Shown here: piece by piece, positions 9,012 through 64,000 of the stretch
How the letters are laid out: each line of letters begins with the position of its first letter
How positions within the stretch are numbered: the stretch's first letter is position 1
Source: Rhizophagus irregularis
Taxonomy: Eukaryota
DNA: 64,000 nucleotides
NCBI RefSeq assembly: GCF_026210795.1
Contig: NC_089430.1
Span: 5,456,001 to 5,520,000, forward strand
Direction: 5' to 3'
Program-made: the position numbers and the translations under genes
Notes under the pieces: model-generated
The model's database searches: none
Told to the model about the DNA's origin: nothing
The model's input: the letters and a program-made list of their open reading frames with translations, nothing else

Positions 9012-12000
9012 TTATTCTATTCCATCTTTTTTTCTTTCACTCTCAGATTCGTTATTTTGACTTAAGAAAAAATTTTTTCCTTTACTCCCCGATTCGCTAT
9101 TTTGACCTAAGAAAAAAAAAGATTATATTAATTACGAATTGAAAAAAACGTGATTATTATGCAGAAAATAATATTTACTATCTTCATTATCATTCAATCG
9201 AGAAATATTGATTTGTGAAGATTCTATTTAATAAATTAAGACTTATTGTTAGTATTTATAAACTAAATATTCTTAAAATTATAAGTGGAATATTACCATT
9301 TTTGTTAATATTCAACTGAGAAATATTGATTTGACAAGATTCTATTTAATAAATTGATACTTTATTATTAGTATTTTATACATTAAATATTTTTAATGTT
9401 GTAAGTAGAATATTTACCATTCTCGTTAATATTCAATTGAGAAATATTGATTTGTAAAGATTCTATTTAATAAATTAAGACTTATCATTAATATTTATAA
9501 ACTGAATATTCTTAAAATTATAAGTGGAATATTTACCATTTTCGTTAATATTCAATTGAGAAATATTGATTTGCAAAGATTCTATTTAATAAATTGATAC
9601 TATTAGTATTTTATAAACTAGGTACTTATAAAGTCATTACATAAGTATGCTATTTACCACTAGTATTAATATTCATTTGAGAAAAGTTAAGTTGTAAAGA
9701 TTCTATTTAATAAATTAAAAGATTGTTATTAGTTGAATATTGACTAATATATTTAAAAAGTAACAATTAACAAAACATTTAATTAATACCTGAATATTCT
9801 TTGCTTATTATATTATCATTTTGTTCATAATAATCATCGGAATTTTTTGGTTCAGGAAGATTACTAAAATCAAGTAATCTACTTGTATAACTAGCTTCTG
9901 AATGTGTGTTATATATCCCTAAATTAGATGTAATGTTATTTAATGAATTGCTGTTTATTTCATCTGCTTCCTTAATTTGTGCTTGTAACTCTTCGTTTGA
10001 TCCATTATGCCATCTTCGTAAAATATTGTTTATTTCTTTTGTTATTGGCCGTTCTGATGGATTGGCATCTAAGCATCTTTTAATTAAATGTACAATTAAT
10101 TGTGGTACTTTAATGTTAAACCTCGGTCTAAATCCTTTACAAATTTTTATTGCTAGATTATTATCATGTTTTAAATCATGATATGGGGATAATCCAGAAA
10201 TTACTTCATACATTATTATACCAAAACTATAAATATCAGTAGCTTTGGTATAATTTTGTCCTCTTAAAATTTCAGGGGCTATATAAGGTAAAACACCATA
10301 TATGTTGTTTTTTGCATTCTCTAATTCATTATAATTTGCAGGTTTACATAATCCCATATCAGTTATAGCAGTTTTATATTTAAACTTTAATATATTCCCA
10401 ATATGCAAATCTCGATGAATTAATTCCTTTTCATGAATACATTCAAGTCCATTTACAATATGTCGTAAATAATCAAACTTTTTATTCCAATTAAGCTTAC
10501 TATATTCTTTATCTAAATAATTTCGTAAACTTCCATCTTCTGCATAATCTAAAATCATTATATAATTTTTCGTTTCTGGATCCTGTGTTATCCCATAAAA
10601 TCCAACAATCACAAAATTATCCATTCCTACTTTATTATGCAATATAAACTATGTGAATGCAATATTACAAAATATTTTAGTAACACTAATAATTTAAATT
10701 TTATTAACATAATAATAAATTAAATTAATCAGATAATACCTCATTAATAAATTCTGGTGTAATATTTTTTGAATTATTCAAACTTTTCAGAGCTACCAAT
10801 ATATCATTGCTATTTCTTTTCCATTTTTGATTTTTACTATCCCAATCAGTTATAAATCCATTAGTTAAATATGCTCTGTATACTTTTCCGAACCCACCTT
10901 TTGCAATATATTTAATATCATAAAATCTATTATAAGGTATCCATTCCAATGCTTCCTTTACATCTTTATGAGCTGATAATTGAGTATCTTGAATAAATTT
11001 ATCAATATCATCATTACCACTAGTCCAATTTTCAAAATTTCGTTGAAAGTATATTGAATTACAGTATATTTTATTACACTCTTTACATTTATTATTCAAA
11101 ACTATCATCATATAATTTTTTGTTTCTGGATCCTGAGTTATTCCATAAAATGTATGTTCAATTTTAATCTACAAATGTAATAATATGTTAGAAAAATAAA
11201 ATTTTAAAATTTTGTTGAGTAATAAGCTTATTAGTATACTACCTTATTTGCAAGTTCAAATGTAAGATCATTGGGAGTATTTAAACTTTTCAAATTCACA
11301 AACATATTAAGATTGTTTCTTCTCCAATTTTGATTTACATTATCCCAACTTTTATCATTTTCATCATAACTTATATATCCATCAATCCAATTTGCTCTAT
11401 ATACTTTACCAAAATCATCTTCTGCAATATATTTAATATCATGAAATCTATCATAAGGTATCCATTCTAATGCTTCTCTTGCAACTTTATGTACTGATAA
11501 CTGAGTATTTTGAATAAATTTATCAATATCATCATTGCCACTAGTCCAATTTTCAAAATTTTGTTGAAAGTAAATTGAATTACATATTTTATTACACTCT
11601 TTACATTTATTATTCAAAACCATCATATAATTTTTTGTTTCTGGATCCCAAGTTATTCCATAAAATTCATGTTCAATTTTAATCTACAAATGTAATAATT
11701 TATTAGAAATAAAGTATTTATAATTTTGTTAATAATTAACTGAAGCTTATACCTCATTTACAAATTCTAATGTAAGAATGTTTGAAGTATTTAAACTCTT
11801 CAAATTAACAAACATATTGCATCCTTCTCTTATCCAATTTTGATTTTCATTATCCCAACTTCCACTATTTTTACAATCACTTATATGTCCATCAATCCAA
11901 TTTGCTCTATATACTTCACAAAACTCATCTTTTGCAATATATTTAATATCATGAAATCTATCATGAGGCATCCATTCTAATGCATGTGATATTTCATTAT

Positions 12001-13709
12001 CATTATGAACTGATAGCTGGCTATCTTGAATAAATTTGTCAATATCATCATTACCACTAGTCCAATCTATGAATTTATATTGAAAGTGTATTGTGTTACA
12101 TATTTTGTTGCACATTTTACATTTATTACTCAAAACCATCATATAATTTTTTGTTTCTGGATCCTGAGTTATTCCATAAAATTCATGTTCAAATTTAATC
12201 TACAAATGTAATAATTTATTAGAAATAAAGTATTTATAATTTTGTTAATAATTAACTGAAGCTTATACCTCATTTACAAATTCTAATGTAAGAATGTTTG
12301 AAGTATTTAAACTCTTCAAATTAACAAACATATTGCATCCTTCTCTTATCCAATTTTGATTTTCATTATCCCAACTTCCACTATTTTTACAATAACTTAT
12401 ATGTCCATCAATCCAATTTGCTCTATATACTTCACAAAACTCATCTTTTGCAATATATTTAATATCATGAAATCTATCATAAGGCATCCATTCTAATGCA
12501 TGTGATATTTCATTATCATTATGAACTGATAGCTGGCTATCTTGAATAAATTTGTCAATGTCATCATTACCACTAGTCCAATCTATGAATTTATATTGAA
12601 AGTGTGTTGTGTTACATATTTTGTTGCACATTTTACATTTATTACTCAAAACCATCATATAATTTTTTGTTTCTGGATCCTGAGTTATTCCATAAAATTC
12701 ATGTTCAAATTTAATCTACAAATGTTATAATATATTAGAAATAAAATATTTATAATTTTGTTAATAATTAACTGAAGCTTATACCTCATTTACAAATTCT
12801 AATGTAAGAATGTTTGAAGTATTTAAACTCTTCAAATTAACAAACATATTGCATCCTTCTCTTATCCAATTTTGATTTTCATTATCCCAACTTCCACTAT
12901 TTTTACAATAACTTATATGTCCATCAATCCAATTTGCTCTATATACTTCACAAAACTCATCTTTTGCAATATGATATTTAATATCATGAAATCTATCATG
13001 AGGTATCCATTCTAATACTTCACTTACATCTTCATGAGCTGATAACTGAGTATTTTTAATAAATTTATCAATATCATTATTGCCACTAGTCCAATCTATG
13101 AATTTCCGTTGAAAGTGAATTGAATTACATATTTTATTGCACCTTTCACATATATTATTCAAAACCATCATATAATTTTTTGTTTCTGGATCCTGAGTTA
13201 TTCCATAAAATATACGTTCAAATTTAATCTACAAATGTAATGATATATTAGAAATAAAATATTTATAATTTTGTTATGTAATTAACTGAAGCTTATACCT
13301 TATTTACAAATTCTAATGTAAAAATGTTTGGAGTATTTAAACTCTTCAAATTCACAAACATATTGTATTCATTTCTTATCCAATTTTGATTTTCATTATC
13401 CCAACTTTTATCATTTTCATCATAACTTATATATTCATCAATCCAATTTGCTCTATATACTTTACCAAACTCATCATCTTTTGTAATATTATACAATTTA
13501 TCATAAGGTATCCATTCTAATACTTCTAATACTTTACTTACATCTTCATGAACTGATAACTGAGTATTTTGAATAATTTTATCAATATTATCATTACCAC
13601 TAGTCCAATTTTTAAAATTATGTTGAAATTGTATTGAATAACAGATGCAATTACATTTTTTACATATCTCGCTAGCATCTGATAGCTTAATTAGCCCAAA
13701 AGAATCCAT
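9012..13709 (-). CDS. Kinase A: tyrosine-kinase-like protein kinase with 6 N-lobe modules (5 degenerate, 1 intact) and a C-terminal micro-exon tail
   Basis: ATG 13709. Modules at ~516-bp period are joined by phase-0 introns. The last module has AKGGFGKVY and VALK; the catalytic exon has HRDLHIGN, TDMGL, YIAPE and DIYSFG. Five 45-nt exons follow, then terminal exon 9106-9012 ending in TAA. Confidence 0.88.
9179..9702 (-). repeat. Tandem array of five 45-nt micro-exons plus introns (~119-bp period)
   Basis: Exons 9702-9658, 9581-9537, 9462-9418, 9341-9297 and 9223-9179, each bounded by ttaaatAG and GTaa, encoding ESLQINISQLNINEN-like 15-mers. Confidence 0.9.
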
Positions 13710-16856: not shown

Positions 16857-19800
16857 ATGTACTGTATAAAGAAATTAATCAAGTCATCAAACACTGACGA
16901 AGAATTGAATGATATATGTGAAAATTGTAAACGTGTATGTTATGGAATAAATTTTCAAAGAAATTTTAAAAATTGGACTAGTGGCAATAATTATATTGAT
17001 ATTTTTATTCAAGTTACTCAATTATCCGTTCATTATCAATGTGAAATATCAAATGCATTAGAATGGATACCTTATGATAAATTTTATAATATTAAATATA
17101 TTTTAGAAGATACTTTTGGTAAAGAATATAAAGCAAATTGGATTGATGGATATATTTATAAATGGAATAATTATTTTAAAAATTGGAAAAGACGTAATAA
17201 AAATATGTTTGTAATTTTAAAAAGTTTAAATGATCCAAAATATATTACATTAAATTTTATGAATGAGGTATAATTTTATATGAAAAATAATTTTTTTTTT
17301 TTTTACAAAATTTTAATCTTTACAATACTTTTAGATTGAAAAGAAACATGAAACTTATGGAATAACTCAAAATCCGAAAACGAAAAATTATATGATTGTA
17401 TTAGATGATAAATGCAAGTGTAATATCATATGTAATGCGAAAATTTTTCAACAAAACTTCAAAAATTGGACTAGTGGTAACAAAGATATCGACAAATTCA
17501 TTCAAGGTACACAATTATTGGCTCATAATAATGTAGAAAACACATTAGAATGGATACCATATGATAGATTCTATGATATCAATTATATTGCAGAAGATAA
17601 TATCTACAAAGCAAATTGGATTGATGGATGTATAGATGAATGGGATATTGAAAATCATAATTGGAAAAGATATAATCAAAATATGTTTGTAAATTTAAAA
17701 AGTTTAGATAATTCTAAAAATATTACATCAGAATTAATAAATAAGGTATAGTTCATTTTTGAATGAAAGTTTAAATATTTTTGTAAATTCACTATAATTT
17801 TAAAAAGCATTATTTAAATATTTTTACTAATATATTATATTTATAGGCCAATCAGACCAATCATAGGCTTTATGGAATAACTCAGGATCCAGAATCAAAA
17901 AATTATATGATGGTCTTAAATGATGAATGTAAAAAATGTTATCATGCATGTAATGCAACTATTTTTCAAAATAATTTTAAAAATTGGACCAGTGGTAATA
18001 ATGATATTGATAAACTTATTCAAGATACTCAGCTATCAGCTCATAAAAATGCAGGAAATGCATTAGAATGGATACCTTATGATAAATTTCACAATATCAA
18101 ACATATTGCAAAAGATGAATTTGGCGAAATATATGAGGCAAATTGGATTGATGGACTTATAGATAAATGGGATGATGAAAATCAAAATTGGAAAAGATAT
18201 AATCAAAATATGTTTGTAAATTTGAAGGGTTTAAATACCCCAGAAAATCTTACATTAGAATTTATAAATAAGGTATGATAAGCTTATTAACAAGATTATA
18301 AGTATTTTTTTTTTCTAACATATTATTATTACATTTGTAGATTAAAAGAGACCATGAATTGTATGGAATGACTCAGGATCCCAAAAAAAATTATATGATC
18401 GTTTTAAATAATAAATGTGCGAAATGTAATTATATATGTAATTCAATATATTTTCAAAGAAATTTTAAAAGTTGGACTAGTGGTAATAATGATATTGATA
18501 AGCTTATTCAAGATGCACAACTATCAACTCATGAAAATGCAGGAAATGCACTAGAATGGATACCTTATGATAGATTTTATAATATAAAATATATTTTAGA
18601 AGATAGTTTTGGTAAAGAATATAAAGCAAATTGGATTGATGGATATGTTTATAAATGGAATAATAATTTTAGAAATTGGAGAAGACGTAATAAAAATATG
18701 TTTGTAACTTTAAAAAGTTTAAATAATCCAAAAAATGTTAAATCAGTAATTATGAACGAGGTATTGTTTTAACGAAATTTTAAATTTTGATTCTTCCTAT
18801 TTTTACTATACTAATATATTATATTTATATTTAATAGATTCATAGTAGTTATGGAATAACTCAAGATCCACAGACAAAAAATTATATGATGGTTTTGAGT
18901 GATAAATGTAAAAAATGTAATAAAATATGTAATACAATATACTTTCAACGAAATTTTAAAAGTTGGACTAGTGGTAATAATGATATTGATAAGATTATTC
19001 AAGATGCACAATTATCAGCTCATAAAAATGCAAGAAATGTATTAGAATGGATACCTTATGATAAATTCTATAATATTAAATATATTGCAAAAGGTGGATT
19101 TGGCAAAGTATATAAAGCGAATTGGATTGATGGACGTATATGGGATTGGAATGATAAAAATCAAAATTGGGAAAGATATGGTAAAAATATGGTTGTGGCG
19201 TTGAAAAGTTTAAATAATTCGAAAAATGTTACATTTGAATTCATGAATGAGGTATAATTTATTTTTATTTGATCAATTATTAATGAAAATTCTAAAATTT
19301 TAATCGTATTAATTTTTATATTTAGATAACATCTCATCATAAAGTAAGTAATGATATTATTATTGGATTTTATGGAATAACTCAAGATCCGGAAACAAAA
19401 GATTATATGATGGTTTTAGAATATGCAATAAATGGAAGTTTACGAAATTATTTAGACACAAATTATAATAAATTAAGTTGGGAAAGAAAAATTAGAGATT
19501 TATGTGATGTTGCAAAGGGACTTGAATCCATCCATAATAATAACTTAATTCATCGAGATTTACATATTGGTAATATACTAATGGGTAATGATACAGTTTA
19601 TATAACTGATATGGGATTATGTAAACCTGCGGATTATAATGAATCAGAAAATGCAAAAAACAACACGTATGGTGTATTACCATATATAGCTCCTGAAATT
19701 TTAAGAGGAGAAAATTATACCGAAGCTTCAGATATTTATAGTTTTGGTATAATTATGTATGAAGTGATTTCTGGATTACCTCCATATCATGATCTCAACC

Positions 19801-20291
19801 ATGATCAATATTTAGCAATAAAAATTTGTCAAGGACTTAGACCAAGATTTAATATTAAAGTACCACAATTTATCGTTGATCTAGTTAAAAGTTGTTTAGA
19901 TGCAAACCCATTAAATCGACCAACAGCAAAAGAAATTTATGAAATTTTTAACCCATGGAGTTTATCAACAGAATTACGAAAACAAATTAGTAAAACGGTC
20001 GAAATAAACAACAATTCATCAAATAATAAAATACCTTCAACTAATTTAGGATTATCATATAAAACACATTCGGAAACTTTTTATGCAAGTAGATTGCTTA
20101 ATTTTGATAATCTACCTGAACCGAAAAATTCTGATGATTATTATGAACGAAATGATAATATAATTGGCATGGAAATTTCAGGTATTAATTAATTAATAAT
20201 AATTCAAATCACTTTTTAATATTATAATAATAATACTAATAATTGATTTTTAATTTATTAAATAGAATCTTTACAAATTGATATTTCTTAA
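16857..20291 (+). CDS. Kinase B: TKL-type kinase with 5 N-lobe modules
   Basis: ORF modules at 16857, 17392, 17907, 18359 and 18886 splice in frame; only the last has GGFGKVY/VALK. Catalytic exon ~19326-20181 (HRDLHIGN, TDMGL, APE). A single tail exon from 20266 (ESLQIDIS) ends at TAA 20289-20291. Confidence 0.87.
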
Positions 20292-21526
20292 TCGAATGAA
20301 AATGGTTATATACAGTTAATGTCTTTGAATAATTTTTTTTGATTCGTACTTAATATATTCTATAGTTTTTCCATGTTAAATAACAAACATAGGCAAAGAA
20401 AAATTTAGAATAAATTTAGGACCTTTTGTTCTATTCCTAAAAATCTTCTTATCAAAAATTTATGTTATGGTGTTTGAAATAGACAGTAGGATCTGCAGAA
20501 AAGGTCATAGGGAAAGGAAAAATTATCATTATATTTTATTGTAATATTTCTAAACATTTGCACAATAAAATAGTAATTTAAGTTAATAAATACTAATATC
20601 ATATGTAAAATGTGTCGAGATAATTTGTTATCTTTTCACGAATAAGCATTTCTTTTATTATTAATCTTACCATCAGACGTCAGTATATTGTCGAGTTACC
20701 AAGGCTGATAAATTCTTTTTTAAAGTAAAAAATCTGAAACTGAAAGTAATGATGTTTGTTTTATCTTATTTTATTTATTTTATTACTATTATTATTTTTT
20801 TCCTTTTTTTTATGAAGTGTATATCATGCGTTCTGTTTTTTTTATTAATCTAGTTTTTTTTTTGGTCAGCTTGTGAGTCATGTTATGCACACGACTCAAT
20901 CGACTCCTGATTTAAATTATTATGTCAGCATTTTTTATTGTATATTAATTCGTGATCCGTGAGTAGGGATGGAAAAAGTTCCAAATGGAGTGACTCAAAT
21001 TGGTTTTAAAACTGAACGTTGGAGCCATTTTTGAGCTGACCGAGCAGCTCAGTGAAACGAACGGTTTGACTCTGAAAATCAACTCTGGAAGCTAAACTGG
21101 TCACGTGGCATTACACAAATTCCAAAAAGAAAATTTGTGCTGATCATATAATTCCGGCCGGAATTATGAATATCAGAAGTGATTCAGGACCCAGAAATAT
21201 ATATCATATGGGCGAGTTTAGTTCATTTAAATTTAATTGATATAATTGCCTTATCTGTCCCATTACATAATACCAATGTGTTCGATATTCATGTGATATT
21301 ATGTCATGTGAATATACAGATTTTATTAAATAAAATTTTCCATCTAACTAATCGTTAAACAAAAATAACTTAACGAAAAAAATGCGTTCAACCCATCCGA
21401 CTAACCTTGGTATATATTTCAGGCTAAACCTGCTGATTTTTCTTTAAATTTATGAATTTGTTTTATTAGTTTTCTCTATTTTTTTTTTTTAGCTATTGTT
21501 TACTTACAGATTTCTCTTTTTTAGTC

Positions 21527-22141
21527 ATGTCTACTCAAGATTCAACTAAGTTATATTGCTCTATTTGCAAAAGGCGTGCAAAAGGGTTTAAAAATCGCTC
21601 AGGACTTCAACGACATGAAACACTAAAACATGTGTCCTACAATACACTTCCGTCACACGTTCGGTCAGTTCCAAACTCCGAACTTTCACATTTAAAAAAA
21701 GCTATAATCAAAGAGTTGCAAAAACGTCTTAAAAATCATCACACTGCTGTTGGGAAACAAGTATTTTCAATACATTGCAGTGAAGATGCTTTTGTTAGTA
21801 TTTTTAAAAATCATATAACTCGTTATTCTCCATGTGGGTCTTCTTATTTTTGTAGTTTTAAGGGGGAAAAAGCCTTTGAAGAAGTTGGAAAAATCTTGGA
21901 TGATGAAAATTGGGGAGAACGTAATTATGGAGGAGGGCAATTAAGCTTTGTCCGTTTGCATATGCCTGAGGTTGAAAATAGTAATTATGAACAAAGTGCA
22001 AAAAAATCTAAAACAAAATCATTAGTTAATGGAGAAATGACTGTTCAATGGAAGGTGACAGGGGGTAAAGATAAAGAGAACCATAAATTTGAAGCAGGTT
22101 CAGCTCAATTTCGTTTTTTTTTAGATCAATGTCAAATTTAA
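21527..22141 (+). CDS. 204-aa transposon-borne protein with an N-terminal C2H2 zinc finger
   Basis: Uninterrupted ORF with YCSICKRRAKGFKNRSGLQRHETLKH (C-x2-C...H-x4-H). A likely 5'UTR intron lies at ~21410-21492; the remainder of the protein is unrecognised. Confidence 0.75.
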   Translation: MSTQDSTKLYCSICKRRAKGFKNRSGLQRHETLKHVSYNTLPSHVRSVPNSELSHLKKAIIKELQKRLKNHHTAVGKQVFSIHCSEDAFVSIFKNHITRYSPCGSSYFCSFKGEKAFEEVGKILDDENWGERNYGGGQLSFVRLHMPEVENSNYEQSAKKSKTKSLVNGEMTVQWKVTGGKDKENHKFEAGSAQFRFFLDQCQI

Positions 22142-22251
22142 AGAAAATCTTATAATGTAAATAGCAAATAATAAAAAAAATTATATAGATAAATTAGTTC
22201 AATTGAATACGTTTTTTCATTTTTTTTTATTTGATAACAAATAAAATCCTG

Positions 22252-24523
22252 TTATTCGAGTCTGTATTTTTTGGATTTTTTAAAAAAATTAGGAACTCTA
22301 TTTGATGCAAAGTACAATTGCCGATTTTCATGCTCTAACATTTCCAAAATTGCTGATTTTCGCGAATTTCTATTCCCTCCATCTTTCAATGTGTTTTGAA
22401 AATAAAGGCATATCTGCATATGATTTTTTTTTTCAACTGGAGAACATGAAAATGCTGCCAATCCAAACTTATGATGAATTTCAAGAAACTCCGCAACATG
22501 ATTGCATAACACATGAATATATGGTGTTATATCCTGAATACGATACATGCCTCTAACAAAATTACCTCTATTTGGATGTCCTGTAGAAGGAGCTGTAAAT
22601 TCATCTAACCAAGATTTGGCCTTATAACGAAAAAATTCACCAGTTGTTTTTTTATCTTGTATTAGATGATATAGTTCATTAAATTGATCCCATAAGGCAC
22701 GGATTTGTATGGCTTGTGTTATTGATTGAAATACAGCAAAAAGGTCAAATTCTTTTAGAACTTTTAATTTGTCTGGACCCATTAATGAAGTATAAGACAG
22801 ATTATTTGTATTTTTTTCATGCCAAAATTGAAACGAAATATTAAGTCTTTGCATTTCTGATAAAATTTTTCCTTTCCAAATTTCTTCATTTGCAGTCTCA
22901 CGGCGGAGATCAGAAATCATTAGTTCCCACAGTCTATCTGTTAATCGCAAAAAAATATGCAACTCGTCAACCACCCAATTTTGTAATGGTATCATATGAA
23001 ATAAAGGTTCTTTGATATGGCCATTTATTTGTTTATAATTGACTTTAATATTATCCATTGATTTGTTGATTTTTTTTGAAGTAGTATTAATGCTATTTTT
23101 ATTACAATCACACCATGGACAGAAATACTGTGCATTAGCAGCATTCATTCCTAAACAAATTGCTAAAAATTTCCAATCGGAACTGAAATATAGTTCTACG
23201 GGCCATTGGTTGCCACCTATTTGATTAAAACCTTTCTCTTTTAATATACATAAATCAGAAATTAAAGGAGTTAATACATTCTTAAGAGACTCATATGTTT
23301 CAGCTCCTGGATATAAAACCAAAGTATAGTGGTTATCTGGTTTTTGTAATCCATTTAAATCATTCAATAATGTCATTGTGACCATTACATGTTTCACTTT
23401 GCGTCCAACATTACGCCCATCTCCTGAAATTCGAATATGTAATGTTGATTGTCTAGGAATTAAAATTCCTTTTTCAATATATAATGGTATTATATAGTTT
23501 AAAATATCTGTTATACGACGTTGACCTCCTTTTCCAATTGATTCTAACATATTTGTAATAATTTCACTATCAGTAATATTTGGTTCTTCTCTAATTGGTT
23601 CAAATTTAGTCAGTTGCAATAAATCAACAAGAGTTAGTGGGACCTGTTTCTTCATTTCTGCATTAATTTTTTGCCATATATCACATACTGCCTTTTCACA
23701 TGGAAGATCTTCAATTCGTGCTAGAGATCGATAAGCTTCTCTTGATATATGACCTTTATCCAAAGATTTAACTACTGCTTCAATTTTTTTTATTTCCTCT
23801 ATTTTATTCACCTTTCCAAAATTAATATCATATACATCATCATCTATCTCAAATTTTATTTGTTTAAGTTTTATTTGATCATCTGGATGAAATGTATTGT
23901 CTCTTTCTCTTTCAACAATATCTAAAATACTCTGTGATAATCCAAGTATTCTGCGACGTTTTTGAGAATTACCAAGATCAATAAATGGCCGAATTTTAAG
24001 ATCTAGAGACATTGTTCTACGCACTCGTTCAACACTAAGTAACTTGAGACCAAAAAGTAAAGGACCAGATATTTTTCCTTTATTTTCTTTGTTTGACTGG
24101 TCCCTATTTCGATTTTTCTCCATTTCTTTCATTCCATTAAACTCCTAATAGAATAATTAGTTAATATTTATTTCAACAATAAAAAATATTTTTAAAAAAT
24201 AAATGTACCTGATAATACTTGCAGGCAGCATCTGTAGATGTCTCCCAGGAATGTACTTCTCTTGAAAAATTAACTCCAAAGCAAATTTTGTATAAAGGTT
24301 TTTTTTCCACATATTCAATTGAACATTCAACTGTATAAATTGCTTTTCCATATTGGGTCTTGACAACATAATTATGAGGAATTGGATGTTTCGGATTCCT
24401 GGTATAATGAAGTTGTTCTGTAAGAGGATATGTTCCCTCTTTTATTATCTCGTAAAAATAGGTTCTTTTATTATCAAAAAGTTTTATAAATGAACTTTTA
24501 GGATAAGTGCCTTCTTCTTTCAT
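22252..24523 (-). CDS. About 735-aa DDE transposase with a RAG1/Transib-like core and an FYR-like N-terminus (2 exons)
   Basis: Exons 24523-24209 and 24144-22252 join in frame (YYQ|EFNGMKE). Motifs ISGDG, SSDWKFL, FCPWCD, DELH, TPYIHVLCNHV and AFSCSPVEKKN are collinear with RAG1 catalytic and Zn-binding motifs. Confidence 0.82.
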
Positions 24524-24999
24524 AATTTATGTTTTACGTAATTATACTAGATTTATAAAAATAAAAAATGAATATATTAAAAATGTGATAAGTAATAAAA
24601 AAAATTATTTGAAAAAATTTAATAAAAAAAAAAAAATATTTAAAAAAAAAGATGCGTCGAAAAATGACTATCAGATCAAAATTTGTTATGCTTTTAAATC
24701 AAGATTAAAACCTGTATTCAATCCAAATTTAGTTATAAGCCTGATGATCATTTCCCAAATTGAAAACTTAACCTTACTTATTTAATCTATTTATATACCT
24801 GACAATTGTAATCTGACAGACAAGAATCGATCTGAGGCACAACATGTACTGTACATGAATTTTTTTTGCGGGATTTTTTTTAAAACTATTTTTTTAGAAC
24901 AGATAACCTGAAAAGTGTATATTATATATATGCCTCAGTAAGTTTTTAGGGAAAGGTTTAATATTAATGTATTTTTATTAATAGTATTTCTTTTTCTTT

Positions 25000-28643: not shown

Positions 28644-31600
28644 ATGAGTCAAATTATAAGGAAATTATTATTGTCATTTCGTAATGATAAGTGTGAAAGT
28701 TGCGGAAATGATCATTGTTATGTAAAACATTTTCAGAAAAATTTTAAAAATTGGACCAGTGGCAATGATAATATTGATAAATCTATTCAAGATACTCAGC
28801 TATCAGCTCATAATGATGTGAAGAAAGCATTAGAATGGATACCTTATGATAAATTTCACAATATTAAATATATTGCAAAAGATGAATTTGGCGAAATATA
28901 TATAGCAAATTGGATTGATGGAAAAATACGTTATTGGGATGTTGCAAATCAAAATTGGAGAAGAAATAATCATAATATGTTTGTAAATTTGAAGAGTTTA
29001 AATATACCAAACATTCTTATATTATTAGAATCTGTAAGTGAGGTATTATAAGCTTGTTAACAAGATTATAATTAATTTTTTTCTAACATATTATTATTAT
29101 ATTTGTAGATTAAAAGAGATGAATTTTATGGAATAACTCAGAATCCAGAAACAAAAAATTACATGATAGTTTTTAATAATATATGTAAAAAATGCCATGA
29201 AAATTGTTATTCAATATATTTTCAACAAAATTTCAATTATTGGACTAGTGATAATAATGATATTGATAAATTTATTCAAGATACTCAGCTATCAGCTCAT
29301 AATGATGTGAAGAAAGCATTAGAATGGATACCTTATGATAAATTTCACAATATTAAACATATTGCAAAAGATGAATTTGGCGAAATATATATAGCAAATT
29401 GTATTGATGGAAATATACGTTATTGGGATGTTGCAAATAAAAATTTGAGAAGAAATAATCATAATATGTTTGTAAATTTGAAGAGTTTAAATATTCCAAA
29501 CATTCTTATATTATTAGAATCTGTAAGTGAGGTATGATAAGCTTGTTAACAAGATTATAATTAATTTTTTTCTAACATATTATTATTATATTTGTAGATT
29601 AAAAGAGATGAATTTTATGGAATAACTCAGAATCCAGAAACAAAAAATTACATGATAGTTTTTAATAATATATGTAAAAAATGCCATGAAAATTGTTATT
29701 CAATATATTTTCTACAAAATTTCAATTATTGGACTAGTGATAATAATGATATTGATAAATTTATTCAAGATACTCAGTTATCAACTCATTATAATGTGAA
29801 GAAAGCATTAGAATGGATACCTTATGATAAATTTCATAATATTAAATATATTGCAAAAGATGAATTTGGCGAAATATATATAGCAAATTGGATTGATGGA
29901 AATATACGTTATTGGGATGTTGCAAATCAAAATTGGATAAGAAATAATCATATGTTTGTAAATTTGAAAAGTTTAAATACTCCAAACATTCCTATATTAG
30001 AATCTGTAAATGAGGTATGATAAGCTTGTTGACAAGATTATAATTATTTTTTTTTTAACATATTATTATTATATTTGTAGATTAAAAGAGATGAATTTTA
30101 TGGAATAACTCAGAATCCAGAAACAAAAAATTACATGATGGTTTTGATTAATATATGTGAAGAGTGTGATAAAATATGTAATTCAATACATTTTCAACGA
30201 AATTTTAAAAGTTGGACTAGTGACAATGATGATATTGATAAATTTATTCAGGATACTCAGCTATCAGCTCATAATGATGTGAAGAAAGCATTAGAATGGA
30301 TACCTTATGATAAATTTCACAATATCAAATATATTGCAAAAGATGAATTTGGAGAAATATATAAGGCAAATTGGATTGATGGAAATATAAGTTATTGGAA
30401 TAATAAAAATGAAAATTGGATAAGAAGTCATCATGATATGTTTGTAAATTTGAAAAGTTTAAATATTCCAGAAAATTTTACATCAGAATTTATAAATAAG
30501 GTATGACAAGCTTATTAACAAGATTATAAGTATTTTTTTTCTAACATATTATTACATTTGTAGATTAAAGGATATGAAATTTATGGAATAACTCAGGATC
30601 CAAAAAAACAAAATTATGTGATGGTTTTGGGTGATATATGTAAAAAATGTAATGAAAAATGTAATTCAATATATTTTCAACGAAATTTCAATTATTGGAC
30701 TAGTGATAATGATGATATTGATAAATTTATTCAAGACACTCAGCTATCAGCTCATAATAATGTGAATAAAGCATTAGAATGGATACCTTATGATAAATTT
30801 TGCAATATCAAACATATTGCAAAAGGTGAATTTAACAAAATATACATAGCAAATTGGATTGATGGAAATATAAGTTATTGGAGTTATTGGGATGATGCAA
30901 ATCAAAATTTGGAAAGAACTAATCATAATATGTTTGTAAATTTGAAGAGTTTAAATACTCCAGAAAATCTTACATTAGAATTTATAAATAAGGTATGACA
31001 AGCTTATTAACAAGATTATAAGTATTTTTTATTCTAACATATTATTACATTGGTAGATTAAAAGAGAGCGTGAATTTTATGGAATAACTCAGAATCCAGA
31101 AACAAAAAATTACATGATGGTTTTAAATAATATATGTGAAAAGTGTAATTCAATATGCAATACAATATACTTTCAACGAAATTTTAAAAGTTGGACTAGT
31201 GGTAATAATGATATTGATAAGATTATTCAAGATGCACAACTATCAGCTCATGAAAATGCAGGAAATGTATTAGAATGGATACCTTATGATAAATTTTATA
31301 ATATTAAATATATTGCAAAAGGTGGATTTGGCAAAGTGTATAAAGCGAATTGGATTGATGGACGTATATGGGATTGGAATGATAAAAATCAAAATTGGGA
31401 AAGATATGGTAAAAATATGGTTGTGGCGTTGAAAAGTTTAAATAATTCGAAAAATGTTACATTTGAATTCATGAATGAGGTATAATTTATTTTTATTTGA
31501 TCGTTTAATGAAATTCTAAAATTTTAATCGTATTAATAGTTATTTCTGTATTTAGATAACATCTCATCACAAAGTAAGTAATGATATTATCATTGGATTT

Positions 31601-32525
31601 TATGGAATAACTCAAGATCCGGAAACAAAAAATTATATGATGGTTTTGGAATATGCAACAAATGGAAATTTACGAAATTATTTAGACACAAATTATAATA
31701 AATTAAGTTGGGAAAGAAAAATTAGAGATTTATGTGATGTTGCAAAGGGACTTGAATCCATTCATAATAATAATCTAATTCATCGAGATTTACATATTGG
31801 TAATATACTAATGGGTAATGATACAGTTTATATAACTGATATGGGATTATGTAAACCTGCGGATTATAATGCATCAGTAAATGCAAAAAACAACGCGTAT
31901 GGTGTATTACCATATATAGCTCCTGAAATTTTAAGAGGAGAAAATTATACCGAAGCTTCAGATATTTATAGTTCTGGAATAATTATGTATGAAGTAATTT
32001 CTGGGTTACCTCCATATCACGATATCAGCCATGATCAATATTTAGCAATAAAAATTTGTCAAGGACTTAGACCAAGATTTAATATTAAAGTACCCCAATT
32101 TATTATTGATTTAGTTAAAAATTGCTTAGATGCAAACCCATTAAATCGACCAACAGCAAAAGAAATTTATGAAATTTTTAACCCATGGAGTTTAACAGCA
32201 GAATTACGAGAACAAATTAGTAAAGCGGACGAAATAAACAACAATTCATCAAATAATAAAATACTTTCAACTAATTTAGGATTATCATATAAAACACATT
32301 CGGAAGCTTTTTATGCGAGTAGATTGCTTAATTTTGATAATCTTCCTGAACCAAAAAATTCCGACGATTATTATGAACATAATGATAATATAATAAGCAA
32401 GGAATTTTCAGGTATTATTTAATAATTTTGTTAATTAAAATGCAAGTTTTAAAGATACTACTAATAAACTTTTCATTTATTAAATAGAATCTTTACAAAT
32501 TGATATTGCTCAATTGAATATTTAG
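28644..32525 (+). CDS. Kinase C: TKL-type kinase with 6 N-lobe modules
   Basis: ATG 28644; modules at ~490-bp period. The last module and catalytic exon (~31556-32411) are nearly identical to kinase B, with DIYSSG instead of DIYSFG. Tail exon from 32488 (ESLQIDIAQLNI) ends at TAG 32523-32525. Confidence 0.87.
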
Positions 32526-38793: not shown

Positions 38794-40112
38794 CACATGC
38801 CGATCAAAAATATCCGGCCACTTTTCAAAATGAAATAAATTTATAAATTTAATATGACAAAAATAAAAATTTAAATAAAATATATTTATTTATGACTCAA
38901 TTTATTAAATTATAAAAAAAATTAATAATATTTAATAATTAATTCTATTGCCATTTGCGGCAATAACTGCTTCAATTCTTTGGGGCATACTATCGATTAA
39001 TTTCTTATAATATTCCGGCGGAATATCCTCCCATGCATCCTTAACATATTTTTCAAGGACTTTAATACTAGATGGTGGTGGAGTACGACGACGTACCATT
39101 ACTTTCATCTCCGACCAAAGATTCTCAATCGGATTTAGGTCAGGGCTTTGTGACGGCCAATTGAGAACCACAATTCCAGCATTTTCACGGGCGGTCATTG
39201 CAATTTTTGAACGGTGTGGTGGGGCATTATCCTCTTGGAAAATTCCGTTACCTTGTGGGAAAAAGTCATGCAAAGTAGGTATGACATAATCATTAATAAT
39301 TTTGGCATGGGTTTGTCCAGTAACTGAACCATTTATCGGAACAATTGGTCCAAGCCCATTCCAGGAAAAACACCCCCAAAACATTTTATTGGGACTATGT
39401 TTTACAGTAACTGCAACACAGTCAGGGTTTAATTCTTCCCCAGGTTCACGCCATACCCTTCCCTGACGGCCTTGTTGAAATTGTGTAAAAGTACTTTCGT
39501 CTGAAAAAAGTACTCTCCTCCACCGTCTTGTTCCCCAGTTTTCATGTGCATGGGCCCATTCGAGGCGAGCTTGACAGTGTGCCTCTGTCATTGCAGGTGT
39601 TTTACGTGGCATACAAGCAGTAAGCCCAACTTTCTTTAGGTTACGACGTATGGTAACAGCAGAAATAGGCTGTTTTGTATGAGCTGTCCAAACTGTTGCA
39701 AGCTTTTTTGTACAAAGCCGACGGTTTTCACCATTTTCTTGAACAAAACTCTTAAGTTCCTGCTGAGCTGTTGAATTTAAAAGTGGAGGACGGCCTGGTT
39801 GTTTTTTTGGTGTTAAGGAATGAGTTTCACGAAGGCGCTTAAGTATATCGTTAACAGTTGTTTTCCCACATCCCAACTGCTTAGCAATTGTGCGACTTGA
39901 TTGTCCACAATTATGACCATAAACAATAGCACCACGTGTTTTTGGGGTAAGTGGCTTCATATTTTTAGAAAGTTCTAGAAAACATAAGGTTTGGGGATAT
40001 GTTTATTATGATTATAAATACAAAATAACGTGTTGATTACGTCATATTAATATGTCATGATCTACATAATTTTGCCAAATCAAAGTGGCCGGATATTTTT
40101 GATCGGCATGTG
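38794..40112 (-). mobile_element. Full-length Tc1-family transposon (1.3 kb)
   Basis: Perfect ~31-bp TIRs CACATGCCGATCAAAAATATCCGGCCACTTT; TA on both flanks. Confidence 0.95.
38932..39960 (-). CDS. Tc1 transposase, DD34E, intact 342 aa
   Basis: N-terminal HTH, GRPP linker, LFSDES, FQEDNAPPH and SPDLNPIENLW; 34 residues between the second D and the E. Confidence 0.95.
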   Translation of the reverse strand: MKPLTPKTRGAIVYGHNCGQSSRTIAKQLGCGKTTVNDILKRLRETHSLTPKKQPGRPPLLNSTAQQELKSFVQENGENRRLCTKKLATVWTAHTKQPISAVTIRRNLKKVGLTACMPRKTPAMTEAHCQARLEWAHAHENWGTRRWRRVLFSDESTFTQFQQGRQGRVWREPGEELNPDCVAVTVKHSPNKMFWGCFSWNGLGPIVPINGSVTGQTHAKIINDYVIPTLHDFFPQGNGIFQEDNAPPHRSKIAMTARENAGIVVLNWPSQSPDLNPIENLWSEMKVMVRRRTPPPSSIKVLEKYVKDAWEDIPPEYYKKLIDSMPQRIEAVIAANGNRINY

Positions 40113-41081: not shown

Positions 41082-44000
41082 ATGGAGAACGCTAATTTTG
41101 GTAGTAATATTATTATTACATTATTATTACGGCATTTTCTTTCTTTTTTTTTCTTTTGATAAAGATTCATAATGTTCAAACTTACTTTTAATAAATAAAT
41201 TGACTAGCATTAAGAAATAGACGACGTCAACCTCCTGTACAACCTCAACCTATTGTTAATAATACTATTTATGATATTGCTTGTGACCAGTTTACTAGAT
41301 TTATTAGACAAATTAGTCAACATAAACAAAAAATTGTTTATGGGTCGATTTTAATTGGTTTAATTTTTATATATGTAAGAAATTATTCTTAAGAAAAATT
41401 TTAATAATAATTTACATTAATTTTCATTAACAACTTTATATATTTGAATTTACTTCAAAGAAATATTACAGTTTCAACATCCCGAAACCGACTCAATTAC
41501 CATTATCGGATATTAACGCACCAGCTATACTCTTAATTGGAAAAACGGGTATGCCTTGATATCATACCTTTCTTTTTAATTAATTAACTTTTTTTCATTA
41601 AGAATATAATTATACATTTACTTGAAAGGCTCTGGCAAAAGTACGCTAGGAAATTTATTGTTGGGAACCTATGAAGATGAAAAACCGACTTTCAAATTCT
41701 CTGATAGCTTTGTAAGTAAAAAAAATGAATGTACTCGAGTTTAAATAATTTCGTTTATATTAGTTTCTAATTCCCAAAATTATTAGTCAGCCGTTACTCA
41801 GAACTCTAGTATTGCGAGGATTCAAATTGGTAATGAAATTTATAACATTATCGATACGCCAGGAATTTTTGACACTGATAACCCCAACGAAGTTGTCCTA
41901 GAAAAAATTGCTCGAACCATCCAAAAATGTGCTTATGGGATTAAGGCCATATTATTCGTAATTGGTGAGTGAGAATAGAGATTATATTCATGATAGAGAG
42001 GTGTATATATTAAAATATTTAAAATGTTTATAGAAGCAAAACGGTTCACGATAGAACAAAAGGAAATGGTCGACAGAATAAAATTATTTCTAGGAGATGG
42101 GTCTCTTCAATACATGATTTCTGTCTTTTCGCATTGTAGCCGTAAGCAGACCGAAGATCCTGAATATTTTAGAAAGTTTTCTTGGAATCCAGAAATGAAG
42201 GCTTTCGTCAATTCCATGGGTAATCGGTGGGCTATTTCTCCGAATCCAGAAAATTACCCTCCTAATAATCCTGTACGTAAACAACGTCTTGGAGATTTAC
42301 AAAATCATATCGTCTCTATAGATGGAAAGTATACGAATGAACTATTCGAAAAGGTCCAGAAAGAACAGGAAGAAAATGAAAGAAAAACGAGAGAAGAGGA
42401 AGTGAAGCGACAAAAAGAATACGATGAAAATAAAAGGAGAGAAGGCGAAGCCATTGCAAGGAAGATTTATGATAAGAATAGAGCAGAAGACGAGAGAAAA
42501 GCAGAAGAAAGACGAATAATGGAAATTAAATATATTAAGGATGCTTTACTTGGACAAATAAATATATTAGTTGAGAAAGTAGCCAATCTTACCAAGGATA
42601 ATGAGAACCTTAAAGAGAAAGTAGCCAATCTTACCAAGGAACACGAAAAGGCTGAACGCGAAAAGGCTGAACGCGAAAAGCCTGAACGCGAAAAGACTGA
42701 ACGTGAAAAGGCTGAACGCGAAAAGGCTGAACACGAGAAGAATCAGAGTTGTTTCGGGCTTGAGACACAAGTCGAACTTGAATCAGGAAAGATTGTTCAA
42801 ATGTCAGAACTTAAAACAGGAGATCGGGTGTTATCAAACATAAGAAATGGTATTGCTGAATACTCTGAAATTTATCTTATTAACCTGTACGTAAACAACG
42901 TCTTGGAGATTTACAAAATCATATCGTCTCTATAGATGGAAAGTATACGAATGAACTGCTCGAAAAGGTCTGGAAAGAACAGGAAGAAAATGAAAGAAAA
43001 ACGAGAGAAGAGGAATTGAAGCGACAGAAAGAATACGACGAAAATAAAAGGAGAGAAGGCAAAGCCATTGCAAGGAAGATTTATGATAAGAATAGAGCAG
43101 AAGACGAGAGAAAAGCAGAAAAAAGACGAAAAATGGAAATTAAATATATTAAGGATGCTTTACTTAGACAAATAAATATATTAGGTGAGAAAGTAGCCAA
43201 TCTTACCAAGGATAATGAGAACCTTAAAGAGAAAGTAGCCAATCTTACCAAGGATAATGAGAACCTTAAAGAGAAAGTGGCCAATCTTACCAAGGAACAC
43301 GAAAAGGCTGAATGCGAAAAGGCTGAACACAAGAAGAATCAGAGTTGTTTCGGGCTTGAGATACAAGTCGAGCTTGAATCAGGAAAGATTATTCAAATGT
43401 CAGAACTTAAAACAGGAGATCGGGTGTTATCAAACATAAGAAATGGTATTGCTGAATACTCTGAAATTTATCTTATTGCTCACATTGAAAAACTCGAGTA
43501 TGAAGAAAAGTTTGCTAAAGTCAGCTTTATTAGATCAGATGGATCTAAAGGCATTTTATTTATTAGATTTTATTGTGATTTACTAAAGTTAAATTATTTA
43601 TTTATATCATATTTTTACTTTTTTTTAGGTCAATTACGGCTTACAACTACTCATTATGTCTTTGATGAAAATTTATCAATTATATTCGCCAAAGATCTAC
43701 GTCCCGGAGAAACAAAGATATTGGTATCAGATGATAACAATAAACTAGTTTCGGTCTTTGTAGATGATGTGACAATCGTAAGTTTTAATCTATACTCAAT
43801 CTTTTATTAGTATAATAAAATTACTTTTCTTGATAATTAATTACATTTATATTTTAAACAGGAGATGTATGATAAGTGCATTAGTTTCTACACACGAGCT
43901 GGGTCAGTTATCGCTGATGGTGTACAAACGCTCATGGATTTGGTTTTTTTACCAGTTCGTTTGTGGACTTATATTATACCAAGAGAAGAACGGCTTCGTC

Positions 44001-51890: not shown

Positions 51891-53566
51891 ATGGAAAATC
51901 TTCGTTCATCTAGAACTAGAATATCAGACACCAATATAGGTATTATTATTGTTATTATTAAATATTACATTATTATTACGGTATTTTTCTTTTTTCTTTT
52001 TTCTTTTTTTTTTAATATATTTCTCAATATTATTTCAATAAATTGACTAGAATTAAGAAATAGTCAACGTCGACGTTCTATACCTCAATCTACTTCAAAT
52101 AACCGATTTTCTAGACGAAATGGCCAAAATAACATTTTTACTTATGTAACATCCCTAATTGCAATTTTTGTGTTTTATAATCTTGTAATTAATGTATTTA
52201 AATTTACTACAAATTTATTTTACGGATCCGACATTTCAGGTATATCGCATAATACTATAATTTTAATTACTCTTGCATATTTATTTATATGTATTGTGTT
52301 ATTAGGTAACTTCTACTTCTGAACTTTTAATTAAGCCCCGCCTCTCTTTAGTTAATCGATTATTTCTATGATCTGAATAATTATGACAGATAATATGTAA
52401 GGAACATAAAATCCGTTTTCAAATTTCATATTTTTTTAATACTTATCGATTTTCACACTTTAGACCTAAATTGAAATCGCATTTATCGGATATCGATTCA
52501 CCAGTCATACTCTTAATTGGGAAAACAGGTATACCTTGATATTGCGTTTTTATTTTGGTCGTTTATATTATTTCCATTGAAGACATGTAATTCATCCTTT
52601 TGTAAAGGTGCTGGTAAAAGCACTCTGGGAAACTCATTGTTAAAAACCTCCGAAAATGAAAACCCGACTTTTCTTGTTTCTGATAGCTTTGTAAGTATAA
52701 AAAATAAATGTACTCTATTTAAATAATTTCATTTATACCAGTTTTTCTAACTTTTAAAAAATGATTAGTCATCCGTTACTAAAAAATCAGGTTTTGCGAA
52801 TATACAAATCGGTAACGAAATTTATAACATTGTCGACACGCCAGGGATTTTTGACACTGATGATCCCAACGATGTTGTCCTAGAAGAAATTGCTCGAACT
52901 ATCCAAAAATGTTCTTATGGGATTAAGGCCATATTATTCGTAATTGGTAAGTGAGGATAATAATGATAACATTCACAATAGAGAGGTATATGTTTAAAAA
53001 GTTATTTATAGAAGCAAAACGGTTCACAGAAGAGCAAAAGGAAATAATCAACAGAGTAAAATTATTTTTCGGTGAAGAGGCCCTCCAATACATGATTTCT
53101 GTCTTTTCGCATTGTAACCGTAAGCAGACAAACGATCCTGAATATTTTAAAAATGTTTCTTGGAATCGGGAAATGAAGGCTTTAGTCAATTCCATGGGTA
53201 ATCGGTGGGCTATTTCTCCGAGCCCAGATATTTTCACGCTTAATAATCTTGTACATAACCAACGCCTCGAAGAATTACAAAATCACATTGTCTCTATAGA
53301 TGGAGTGTATACAAATGAATTACTCGAGAAAGCTCGGAAAAGACAAGATGAAAATGCAAGAATTGCGAGAGAAGCAGAAGAGAAACGACAAAAAGAATAC
53401 GATGAAAATAAAAGGAGAGAAGGTGAAGCCATTGCAAGGAAGAATTATGAGAAGCAGAAAGAAATAGATGAGAGAAAAACAAATGAAAGACGAAAAAAGG
53501 AAATCGAGGATATAATGGAATTTCTACTTAAACAAATAAATAGCCTAAAAAAGACAGTGGATAATA
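51891..53566 (+). CDS. GIN1-like copy 2: TM-AIG1 GTPase-coiled coil, cut off just before the Hint domain by unrelated sequence
   Basis: ATG 51891; LLIGKTGAGKST, SSVT, DTPG. Homology to copy 3 stops at KKTVDN; the frame reads on into T-rich foreign DNA to a stop at 53658. Linker exons at 52240-52460 are unresolved and it may be a pseudogene. Confidence 0.7.
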
Positions 53567-63389: not shown

Positions 63390-64000
63390 TTAACTATTTT
63401 CATTAACGTTAATATTCAATTGAGAAATATTGATTTGTAAGGATTCTATTTAATAAATTAAGGCTTATTGTTAGTAATTGTGAACTAAGAGTATTTTAAA
63501 AATCGTTATATTTACCATTTTCATTAATATTCAATTGAGAAATGTTGATTTGTAAAGACTCTATTTAATAAATAATACTTTATATTATTAGTATTTTATA
63601 AACTAAGTGTTTTAAAGTCATTATATTTACCATTCTCATTAGTACTCAATTGAGAAAGATTACGCCGTAAAGATTCTATTTAATAAATTAATATTTTATT
63701 ATCAGTATTTATAAACTATGTATTTTTAAAGTTATACCACAGGTAAAATATTTACCATTCTTATCAATATTCAATTGAGAAAACCTAAGTTGTAAAGATT
63801 CTATTTAATAAATTGAAGTTATTATTAGTATAATATTAACTAAATATATCTACAAAGTAACAATTAATAAATTGCTTTATTAATACCTGAAAATTCCTCG
63901 CTTATTATATTATCATTTTTCTCATAATAATCATCAGAATTTTTTGGTTCGGGAAGATTATTGAAATCAAGCGATCTACTTGTATAAATAGCTTCCGAAT
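63390..64000 (-). CDS. Kinase D: 3' end of a fourth kinase with four tail micro-exons (gene continues beyond the window)
   Basis: SEAIYTSRSLDFNNLPEPKNSDDYYEKNDNIISEEFS|gt, then exons 63800-63756, 63675-63631, 63560-63516 and 63445 onward (stop at 63390 if unspliced). Confidence 0.82.

What the first reader, a model, noticed from the sequence alone, without database searches (positions are those of the whole stretch)
10738..13709. Kinase built from a tandem array of disabled kinase N-lobes ahead of one active domain
Each ~516-bp unit encodes a Cys motif (CxxCxxxC), NWTSGN, LEWIP and kinase subdomains I-V, but no C-lobe. Upstream units replace the Gly loop GGFG with acidic DEFG/DDFG/DEFC and VALK with VNLK, and some change the helix-C Glu to Lys (NEV to NKV). 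Only the last unit is canonical. The same rule holds in kinases B and C, which suggests selection rather than decay. Inference: the half-kinase repeats act as a variable sensor, decoy or autoinhibitory array.
Basis: partly seen in the sequence, partly recalled or inferred. Interest (0 to 1): 0.8.

Follow-up and report, generated by a model that had tools for sequence, protein, structure and literature searches.

The report
Kinase with chain of half-kinase baits
In root-symbiotic (arbuscular mycorrhizal) fungi, many kinase genes carry a chain of differing copies of the kinase's own front half ahead of one complete kinase; the copies have lost the ATP-binding features, are predicted to keep their fold, and likely act as baits that catch proteins aimed at the kinase, as a single such copy does in a wheat resistance protein.

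Summary
Confirmed and family-wide. Window 13709-9790 (minus) is a spliced Rhizophagus irregularis-type TKL kinase gene: five upstream modules (putative Cys3-His zinc knuckle, WTSGN helix, LEWIP, N-lobe beta1-beta5, no C-lobe), then one canonical N-lobe and a C-lobe with HRD, DMG and APE. Neighbouring genes B (4+1) and C (5+1) follow the same plan. Spliced RNA joins repeat exons (all six introns of B; three of A). In the 120 best homologues, the GGF loop is in 73 of 73 C-lobe-adjacent modules and 3 of 336 upstream ones; upstream modules also lose 8-10 residues of the alphaC-beta4 loop. The same plan occurs in Acaulospora, Gigaspora and soil contigs. Modules are under purifying selection (omega 0.51, no stops), and one alone is predicted to fold as an N-lobe (pLDDT 89). 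Corrections: the acidic loop is local (51 of 336), not a family rule, and selection for disabling is not shown; relaxation suffices. The closest precedent is the single partial kinase duplication (KDup/PKF) of wheat RWT4/WTK3, which binds a fungal effector. Best reading (0.45): a multivalent, diversified bait array wired to its own kinase. No ligand, activity or docking is shown. I found no description of the array in ten literature searches.

The parts
9790..13709 (-). Kinase gene A, main coding part. Exons 13709-13299, 13228-12785, 12715-12269, 12199-11753, 11683-11243, 11168-10740, 10648-9790; at least 1,176 aa with the first tail micro-exon
   Evidence: Exons 1-6 match RirG_095140 (P0007) at 99.8% over 875 aa; that record stops at the sixth intron, which RNA contigs join in 4 of 4 runs
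13151..13664 (-). Module A1: Cys motif, WTSGN, LEWIP, N-lobe; loop DDEFG, VNLK, helix-C Lys, short alphaC-beta4 loop
12638..13150 (-). Module A2: KDEFC, VNLK, helix-C Glu kept, short loop
12122..12637 (-). Module A3: KDEFC, VNLK; near-copy of A4 (1 synonymous and 6 non-synonymous differences)
   Evidence: intron 12784-12716 joined in 1 of 4 contig runs
11606..12121 (-). Module A4: KDEFC, VNLK
11088..11605 (-). Module A5: EDDFG, VNLK, helix-C Lys; predicted to fold alone as a capped kinase N-lobe
   Evidence: pLDDT 88.8, pTM 0.81; best matches EGFR, RIPK2 and JAK3 kinase domains, about 107 aligned columns
10550..11087 (-). Module A6: canonical N-lobe (KGGFG, VALK, helix-C Glu, full-length alphaC-beta4 loop)
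9790..10549 (-). Hinge, C-lobe and tail. HRDLHIGN at 10417-10394, DMG in place of DFG, APE
   Evidence: (PF07714, E 6e-38)
9170..9702 (-). Five 121-bp repeats, each an acceptor plus a 45-nt phase-1 micro-exon that would add a 15-aa ESLQ-type unit to the tail
   Evidence: joint into the first micro-exon in 4 of 4 contig runs, first-to-second in run X24 (may come from a paralogue)
16857..20300 (+). Kinase gene B: 4 upstream modules, 1 canonical N-lobe, C-lobe; 987 aa
   Evidence: equals P0032 over 979 aa; all six introns joined at GT..AG in run X24; AlphaFold2 pLDDT 79.7
28644..32520 (+). Kinase gene C: 5 upstream modules, 1 canonical N-lobe, C-lobe

Best explanation
This is a spliced TKL-type kinase gene in which the kinase's own capped N-lobe has been copied five times ahead of one complete, likely active kinase, and the copies likely serve as a multivalent, diversified bait array for proteins that engage this kinase family's N-lobe. 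Shown: gene structure, splicing of repeat exons, family-wide restriction of canonical motifs to the last unit, purifying selection on the module core. Predicted: each module folds by itself as an N-lobe under a helical cap with a Cys3-His zinc site; the protein is soluble and intracellular (no hydrophobic segment). Inferred: copies arise by unequal crossing-over between phase-0 cassettes. Freed from a C-lobe, they lose the Gly loop, the beta3 Ala and the alphaC-beta4 loop but keep the cap and sheet, and each copy drifts or is selected to a different surface. A foreign or non-self protein (a kinase-directed effector of an endobacterium, mycoparasite or virus, or a kinase of another fungal genotype) would bind one module and cluster or release the terminal kinase, which would then signal defence or incompatibility.
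For: Structure and splicing. Family rule (120 best of 368 hits; 73 C-lobe-adjacent and 336 upstream near-complete modules counted): GGF 73/73 vs 3/336; ALK 68/73 vs 5/334; long alphaC-beta4 loop 69/72 vs a short one in 303/316; fully canonical 67/72 vs 0/315; Cys3+His 57/63 vs 276/300. Selection on the 14 window modules: omega 0.51, below 1 at p=4e-8; beta3 0.07, beta4-beta5 0.20, WTSGN helix 0.30; Cys-knuckle region 0.94 and helix linker 1.35. Weak positive selection: M2a vs M1a p=0.026, M8 vs M7 p=0.014, three sites in the cap with posterior over 0.8. Copies within one protein differ (mean identity 66%, 83 proteins). Same plan in 11 of 13 Acaulospora morrowiae and 16 of 25 Gigaspora rosea proteins by a crude motif scan and in soil contigs L029, L038, L042. 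Modules group by lineage (3 label changes), not by dead or active state (22), so baits track their own kinase. Precedent: the single KDup/PKF of wheat RWT4/WTK3 resembles the kinase N-terminus and binds the effector PWT4 (10.1101/2024.04.30.591956, 10.1101/2024.08.30.610185; passages). Endobacteria of these fungi carry kinases taken from Glomeromycotina (PMC10507103; passages).
Against: No ligand, kinase activity or phenotype is known. Positive selection is weak, comes from my own codon-model script on 14 recombining paralogous repeats (which inflates false positives), and falls in the cap, which is about as variable in active modules. The C-lobes themselves are only 65% identical across the family, so the modules are not uniquely fast. 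Any in-frame repeat ahead of a needed kinase must stay open and folded, which can explain much of the purifying selection without a binding role. The full-length model has pTM 0.53, so it gives no fixed route from module to kinase. In wheat the effector is modelled between KDup and a separate pseudokinase domain, which is absent here. No single read or contig spans a whole gene.
Confidence: 0.45

Rival explanations
1. The array is a scaffold for the fungus's own partners: each capped N-lobe docks a substrate, an adaptor or another family kinase, and repetition gives avidity or builds kinase clusters without any foreign ligand.
For: The cap, hairpin Trp/Arg and YGITQxP residues are as conserved in upstream as in active modules. 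The closest solved folds are RIPK1/2, BRAF and EGFR kinase domains, which are activated through N-lobe contacts (established knowledge, recalled).
Against: Copies within one protein average only 66% identity, whereas avidity for one partner would favour uniform copies. Whether the conserved residues are exposed was not tested.
Confidence: 0.25
2. The array is a tolerated by-product: phase-0 cassettes duplicate easily in a repeat-rich genome, and selection only keeps the frame open and the modules folded so that the terminal kinase is still made.
For: About half of the sites evolve near omega 1 (M1a). ATP-site features decay in many different ways (256 loop strings in 336). These kinases belong to high-copy, often methylated, transposon-neighbouring families (PMC8647823; passages). 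Single-module kinases are common: 28 of 78 metagenome loci show one canonical unit and a C-lobe, although most of these contigs are short.
Against: The plan recurs in three fungal families and several kinase subfamilies with up to about ten or more modules. The same crossing-over that adds cassettes would remove useless ones. A weak signal of positive selection exists.
Confidence: 0.2
3. The nearest dead module folds back on the catalytic domain and holds it off (autoinhibition), with the acidic loop mimicking phosphate or occupying the basic cleft.
For: Upstream loops lose the positive charge of the active loop (mean +1.7 vs 0.0), the beta3 Lys is kept in 285 of 334, and window modules are mostly acidic there.
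Against: The acidic loop is in only 51 of 336 modules. The module next to the kinase is no more like the active unit in beta3-alphaC than the others. One site cannot use 4-10 inhibitors. Acaulospora modules shown have another residue pattern at beta3.
Confidence: 0.1

Closest known systems
Wheat RWT4/WTK3 (Pm24) integrated partial kinase duplication (KDup / pseudo-kinase fragment, PKF)
   Same: A partial copy of the kinase's own N-terminal part sits directly ahead of an active kinase, has lost catalytic motifs and clusters with its own kinase; in wheat it binds the effector PWT4 (passages).
   Different: Wheat has one copy of about 104-145 aa that lacks the catalytic Lys, in a tandem kinase with a C-terminal pseudokinase and a partner NLR. 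Here there are 1 to 10 or more copies, each a whole N-lobe with a Cys3-His cap, in a fungal TKL lineage; no second kinase domain and no NLR partner is seen. The resemblance is presumably convergent.
Expanded Glomeromycotina TKL / PK_Tyr_Ser-Thr kinases
   Same: The terminal domain is PF07714. The family is known as a high-copy signalling class (PMC8647823; passages).
   Different: Records name these proteins 'kinase-like', 'Ypk2p', 'hypothetical' or 'uncharacterized', and some split the gene (RirG_095140). No Pfam family describes the module (the C6_DPF hit is a summed Cys-rich match).
Kinase-pseudokinase tandems (JAK JH1/JH2; plant tandem kinase proteins)
   Same: A non-catalytic kinase-derived unit lies in cis to an active kinase; JAK is the top full-length Foldseek row, at TM-score 0.25.
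   Different: Those pseudokinases are complete two-lobed domains (established knowledge); here only N-lobes are repeated, with no C-lobe and so no nucleotide cleft.

Membership tests
TKL-type protein kinase (terminal domain) | Gly-rich loop, beta3 Lys, helix-C Glu, HRD...N, DxG, APE | tested here: met
   A6: KGGFG, VALK, NE, HRDLHIGN, DMG, APE. Family: HRD 75 of 81, D(M/F/L)G 76 of 81, APE 71 of 81. DMG replaces DFG.
TKL-type protein kinase (terminal domain) | Best profile and fold among TKL/TK kinases | tested here: met
   PF07714 scores above PF00069; RIPK1/2 dominate the Foldseek rows.
TKL-type protein kinase (terminal domain) | Phosphotransfer activity | not testable with these tools
   Motifs only.
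Pseudokinase (classical, two-lobed) | Complete bilobal kinase fold lacking one or more catalytic residues | tested here: not met
   Modules end after beta5, with no hinge or C-lobe.
Plant tandem kinase protein (RWT4/WTK3 type) | Two complete kinase or pseudokinase domains | tested here: not met
   One C-lobe per gene in A, B and C.
Integrated partial kinase duplication (KDup/PKF-like) | N-terminal partial duplicate of the protein's own kinase N-terminus, without catalytic motifs | tested here: met
Integrated partial kinase duplication (KDup/PKF-like) | Direct binding of a foreign effector needed for signalling | not testable with these tools
   No ligand known.
Integrated partial kinase duplication (KDup/PKF-like) | Raised dN/dS or positive selection on the duplicate | tested here: inconclusive
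   Omega 0.51 overall; p=0.026 and p=0.014 for a small positive class, with recombination uncontrolled.
Zinc-binding knuckle (Cys3-His) | Four ligands converging on one metal | tested here: inconclusive
   Cys4, Cys7, Cys11 and His42 co-conserved in 276 of 300 upstream modules; geometry and metal not examined. Other subfamilies have a four-Cys motif.

The most novel reading that the evidence does not exclude
Arbuscular mycorrhizal fungi have a large, undescribed class of intracellular immune or non-self receptors built from their own kinase: a recombining array of stand-alone kinase N-lobes serves as the variable recognition repeat (the role that LRR, TPR or WD40 repeats play elsewhere) and triggers a single C-terminal kinase. 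The kinase N-lobe would thereby have become an autonomous, zinc-capped repeat domain, in Glomeraceae, Acaulosporaceae and Gigasporaceae.
Probability: 0.35. Interest if true: 0.88.

Novelty: new variant of a known kind. Interest (0 to 1): 0.68.

Why it matters
The kinase N-lobe is normally half of an enzyme. Here it behaves as a free-standing, repeated domain, which kinase specialists would not expect and which Pfam does not describe. The huge kinase expansion of mycorrhizal fungi has no agreed function; this architecture gives a testable one (bait arrays for kinase-directed foreign proteins, convergent with wheat RWT4/WTK3) and names the part to delete or use as bait. It also shows that public gene models split or miscount these genes.

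Tried and rejected
Pseudogene or decay: rejected (open frame, in-frame length changes, spliced RNA, omega below 1). Assembly artefact: rejected; the modules differ, P0007 matches at 99.8%, and the plan recurs in other species. 'Acidic loop as a family rule': rejected. 'Selection actively removes GGFG from upstream modules': not shown. The cap of an active module is as close to a dead module of its own protein as to any other active module in 22 of 69 cases, against 0 of 69 for the Gly loop, but one-way copying from dead to active with selection on the active copy gives the same pattern. Allelic module-number variation: not shown; 7 of the 8 protein pairs with near-identical C-lobes and different module counts have identical C-lobes and appear to be alternative gene models of one locus, so counts from records are unreliable. 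NG86 omega (0.70 overall, 1.6 at motif sites) was set aside as biased in AT-rich DNA, and the ML values are used. RNA gaps: the run search listed no holder on record as RNA; three polyA runs gave gene A only about 1-7-fold depth, mostly from paralogues; introns 13298-13229 and 11242-11169 were not seen joined, and 11184-11327 had no contig cover in 4 of 4 runs, which proves nothing either way; skip joints 11683-13299 and 11683-12785 may be isoforms or cross-mapping between repeats. No relative in prokaryote genomes or viral contigs by pattern scan, and no solved structure by sequence. Earlier scan findings: none returned.
Full report
Observation. The window is AT-rich and holds three genes of one plan. 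Gene A starts at 13709 on the minus strand. Six phase-0 GT-AG introns of 69-91 nt join seven exons into one open frame. The WTSGN motif recurs every 513-521 bp. Each protein module runs from a CxxCxxxC motif through a WTSGN helix and LEWIP into beta1-beta5 of a kinase N-lobe; the intron sits after helix C. Modules A1-A5 read DDEFG, KDEFC (three times) and EDDFG in the Gly loop and VNLK in beta3, A1 and A5 have Lys for the helix-C Glu, and all five have a short alphaC-beta4 loop. A6 is canonical and continues into a C-lobe with HRDLHIGN, DMG and APE (PF07714). Gene B has 4+1 modules and gene C 5+1. Exons 1-6 of A match RirG_095140 at 99.8% and B matches another Rhizophagus irregularis record at 100% over 979 aa.

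Expression. In raw reads of run X24 all six introns of gene B are joined at the predicted GT..AG sites (11-29 reads each), with cover along the whole gene; the intron before the C-lobe exon is also joined in the other three runs. For gene A, contigs join the last module to the C-lobe exon in 4 of 4 runs, so the public model that ends the gene there is split in error. Intron 12784-12716 is joined in 1 of 4 runs, a repeat-to-repeat junction that cannot be placed uniquely in 3 of 4, and contigs cover the first module and its start codon. No read or contig spans a whole gene.

Family rule. A search with one module found 368 proteins over 262 aa; the 120 listed are Rhizophagus irregularis, clarus or diaphanus, except one row without a name. 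This ranking favours multi-module proteins. Of 732 module hits, 577 were near-complete; 168 of these lie in records without a downstream C-lobe and were set aside, leaving 73 C-lobe-adjacent and 336 upstream modules. GGF occurs in 73 of 73 versus 3 of 336; beta3 ALK in 68 of 73 versus 5 of 334; the helix-C Glu in 71 of 72 versus 184 of 316; a 16-18-residue alphaC-beta4 spacer in 69 of 72, versus 5-9 residues in 303 of 316; all four features in 67 of 72 versus 0 of 315. The beta3 Lys is kept in 285 of 334 upstream modules and Cys3+His in 276 of 300. The acidic loop is local: 51 of 336 read [DE][DE]F, 185 are shortened, and there are 256 different strings. Proteins with an active unit hold 2-10 modules by motif count, but record-based counts are unreliable.

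Breadth. A profile search of cluster representatives gave 3,122 hits at E up to 0.001. Of 20 looked up, 17 are Rhizophagus and 3 Acaulospora morrowiae. A search with two Acaulospora modules added Gigaspora rosea and one Diversispora protein. By a crude motif scan, 11 of 13 Acaulospora and 16 of 25 Gigaspora proteins show degenerate units ahead of one canonical unit; the Diversispora protein has two intact units. Soil contigs L038 and L042 show 5+1 and L029 3+1, each with a C-lobe. On a quick tree of 109 sampled modules with the Gly loop and beta3-alphaC columns removed, lineage labels need 3 changes and dead/active labels 22. Only 5 branches are starred, and one kept column also defined the Rhizophagus subfamily labels. 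The modules therefore track their own lineage's kinase, through repeated origin or continued exchange; I cannot tell which. Pattern scans found no relative in prokaryote genomes or viral contigs.

Selection. On the 14 upstream modules of the window, my codon-model script gives omega 0.51 (below 1, p=4e-8), with half of the sites near 0.09 and half near 1. By region: beta3 0.07, beta4-beta5 0.20, LEWIP 0.28, WTSGN helix 0.30, hairpin 0.49, Gly loop 0.58, alphaC region 0.84, Cys-knuckle region 0.94, helix linker 1.35; the intervals printed are conditional on fixed rates and too narrow. A small positive class is weakly favoured (p=0.026 and 0.014), with three cap sites above 0.8 posterior; recombination among repeats can produce this. 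Neutral evolution would leave a stop in about 14 of 14 modules; none has one. Against over-reading: the C-lobes are themselves only 65% identical, and an in-frame repeat ahead of a needed kinase must stay open and folded whatever its role.

Structure. AlphaFold2 on gene B's protein gives every module the same helix-and-sheet pattern (mean pLDDT 79.7, pTM 0.53, so no fixed arrangement); the kinase matches RIPK1/2 and related domains. Module A5 alone gives pLDDT 88.8 and pTM 0.81 and matches about 107 columns of EGFR, RIPK2 and JAK3 kinase domains. No Pfam family describes the module. No hydrophobic segment is present in P0007 or P0032. The alphaC-beta4 loop packs on the C-lobe in intact kinases (established knowledge, recalled), so its shortening fits life without a C-lobe. 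Docking of a module on the kinase and the zinc geometry were not obtained.

Mechanism. Most likely (0.45) the array is a multivalent, diversified bait: each copy offers the surface of this family's capped N-lobe in a different version, a foreign or non-self protein binds one copy, and the terminal kinase is clustered or released. The ligand and the relay are inferred. Rivals: a scaffold for the fungus's own partners (0.25), a tolerated by-product (0.2), autoinhibition (0.1).

Comparison with what is known. Wheat RWT4/WTK3 carries one partial kinase duplication that resembles the kinase N-terminus, clusters with its own kinase and binds the blast effector PWT4 (10.1101/2024.04.30.591956 and 10.1101/2024.08.30.610185; passages seen). 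The fungal proteins work plausibly like it but are not tandem kinase proteins or classical pseudokinases, since the repeated unit has no C-lobe. The kinase expansion in these fungi is known (PMC8647823; passages), and their endobacteria carry host-derived kinases (PMC10507103; passages). Passages of PMC10197012 and PMC8778642 did not mention the array. Ten full-text searches (listings and abstract starts seen) showed no description of repeated N-lobes in these kinases. The library lacks most subscription papers, including possibly the main genome papers, and I read no supplements, where domain lists could mention it.

Verdict. A real, selected, lineage-wide architecture; a new variant of the partial-kinase-duplication idea, with the N-lobe turned into a repeat domain. 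Interest 0.68.

Noticed in passing
window 9170-9702 (-) and 63408-64000 (-): The 121-bp and 115-bp tandem repeats are arrays of acceptor plus 45-nt micro-exon that would add 15-aa ESLQ-type units to the kinase tail, so gene A is repeat-expanded at both ends. The alternating polar/hydrophobic, Q/N-rich units could be a beta-stacking or oligomerisation tail (speculation, not tested). The copy at the window's end probably belongs to a further kinase beyond it.
   Followed up: partly
window 17869-20297 vs 30097-32519: Genes B and C are 87% identical over their 3' 2.4 kb and their active N-lobes differ little (dN 0.025, dS 0.10), while their first modules differ: recent exchange or duplication of the kinase end with different arrays.
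   Followed up: partly
window 11683-13299 and 11683-12785 (-): RNA joints that skip one or more whole modules at the exact splice sites; possible module-skipping isoforms, or cross-mapping between repeats and paralogues.
   Followed up: no
window 41997-43810, 52951-53658, 57852-58700 (+): Three related genes with AIG1-type GTPase and/or Hint matches; the AIG1+Hint expansion is described for Glomeromycotina (PMC8778642 passage).
   Followed up: no
window 38932-40002 (-): Open Tc1/mariner-type transposase (DDE_3, HTH_Tnp_Tc3_2).
   Followed up: no
window 21470-24526: ORFs of 223, 630 and 117 aa without a Pfam match above cut-off; possibly parts of a transposon.
   Followed up: no
protein P0310 (Gigaspora rosea): A degenerate capped N-lobe module at the C-terminus of a ubiquitin-hydrolase record; a true fusion or a gene-model merge.
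   Followed up: no
protein P0316 (Diversispora epigaea): Two identical, still canonical N-lobe units ahead of a C-lobe in a record with TPR matches: a possible fresh duplication before decay, or an assembly duplicate.
   Followed up: no
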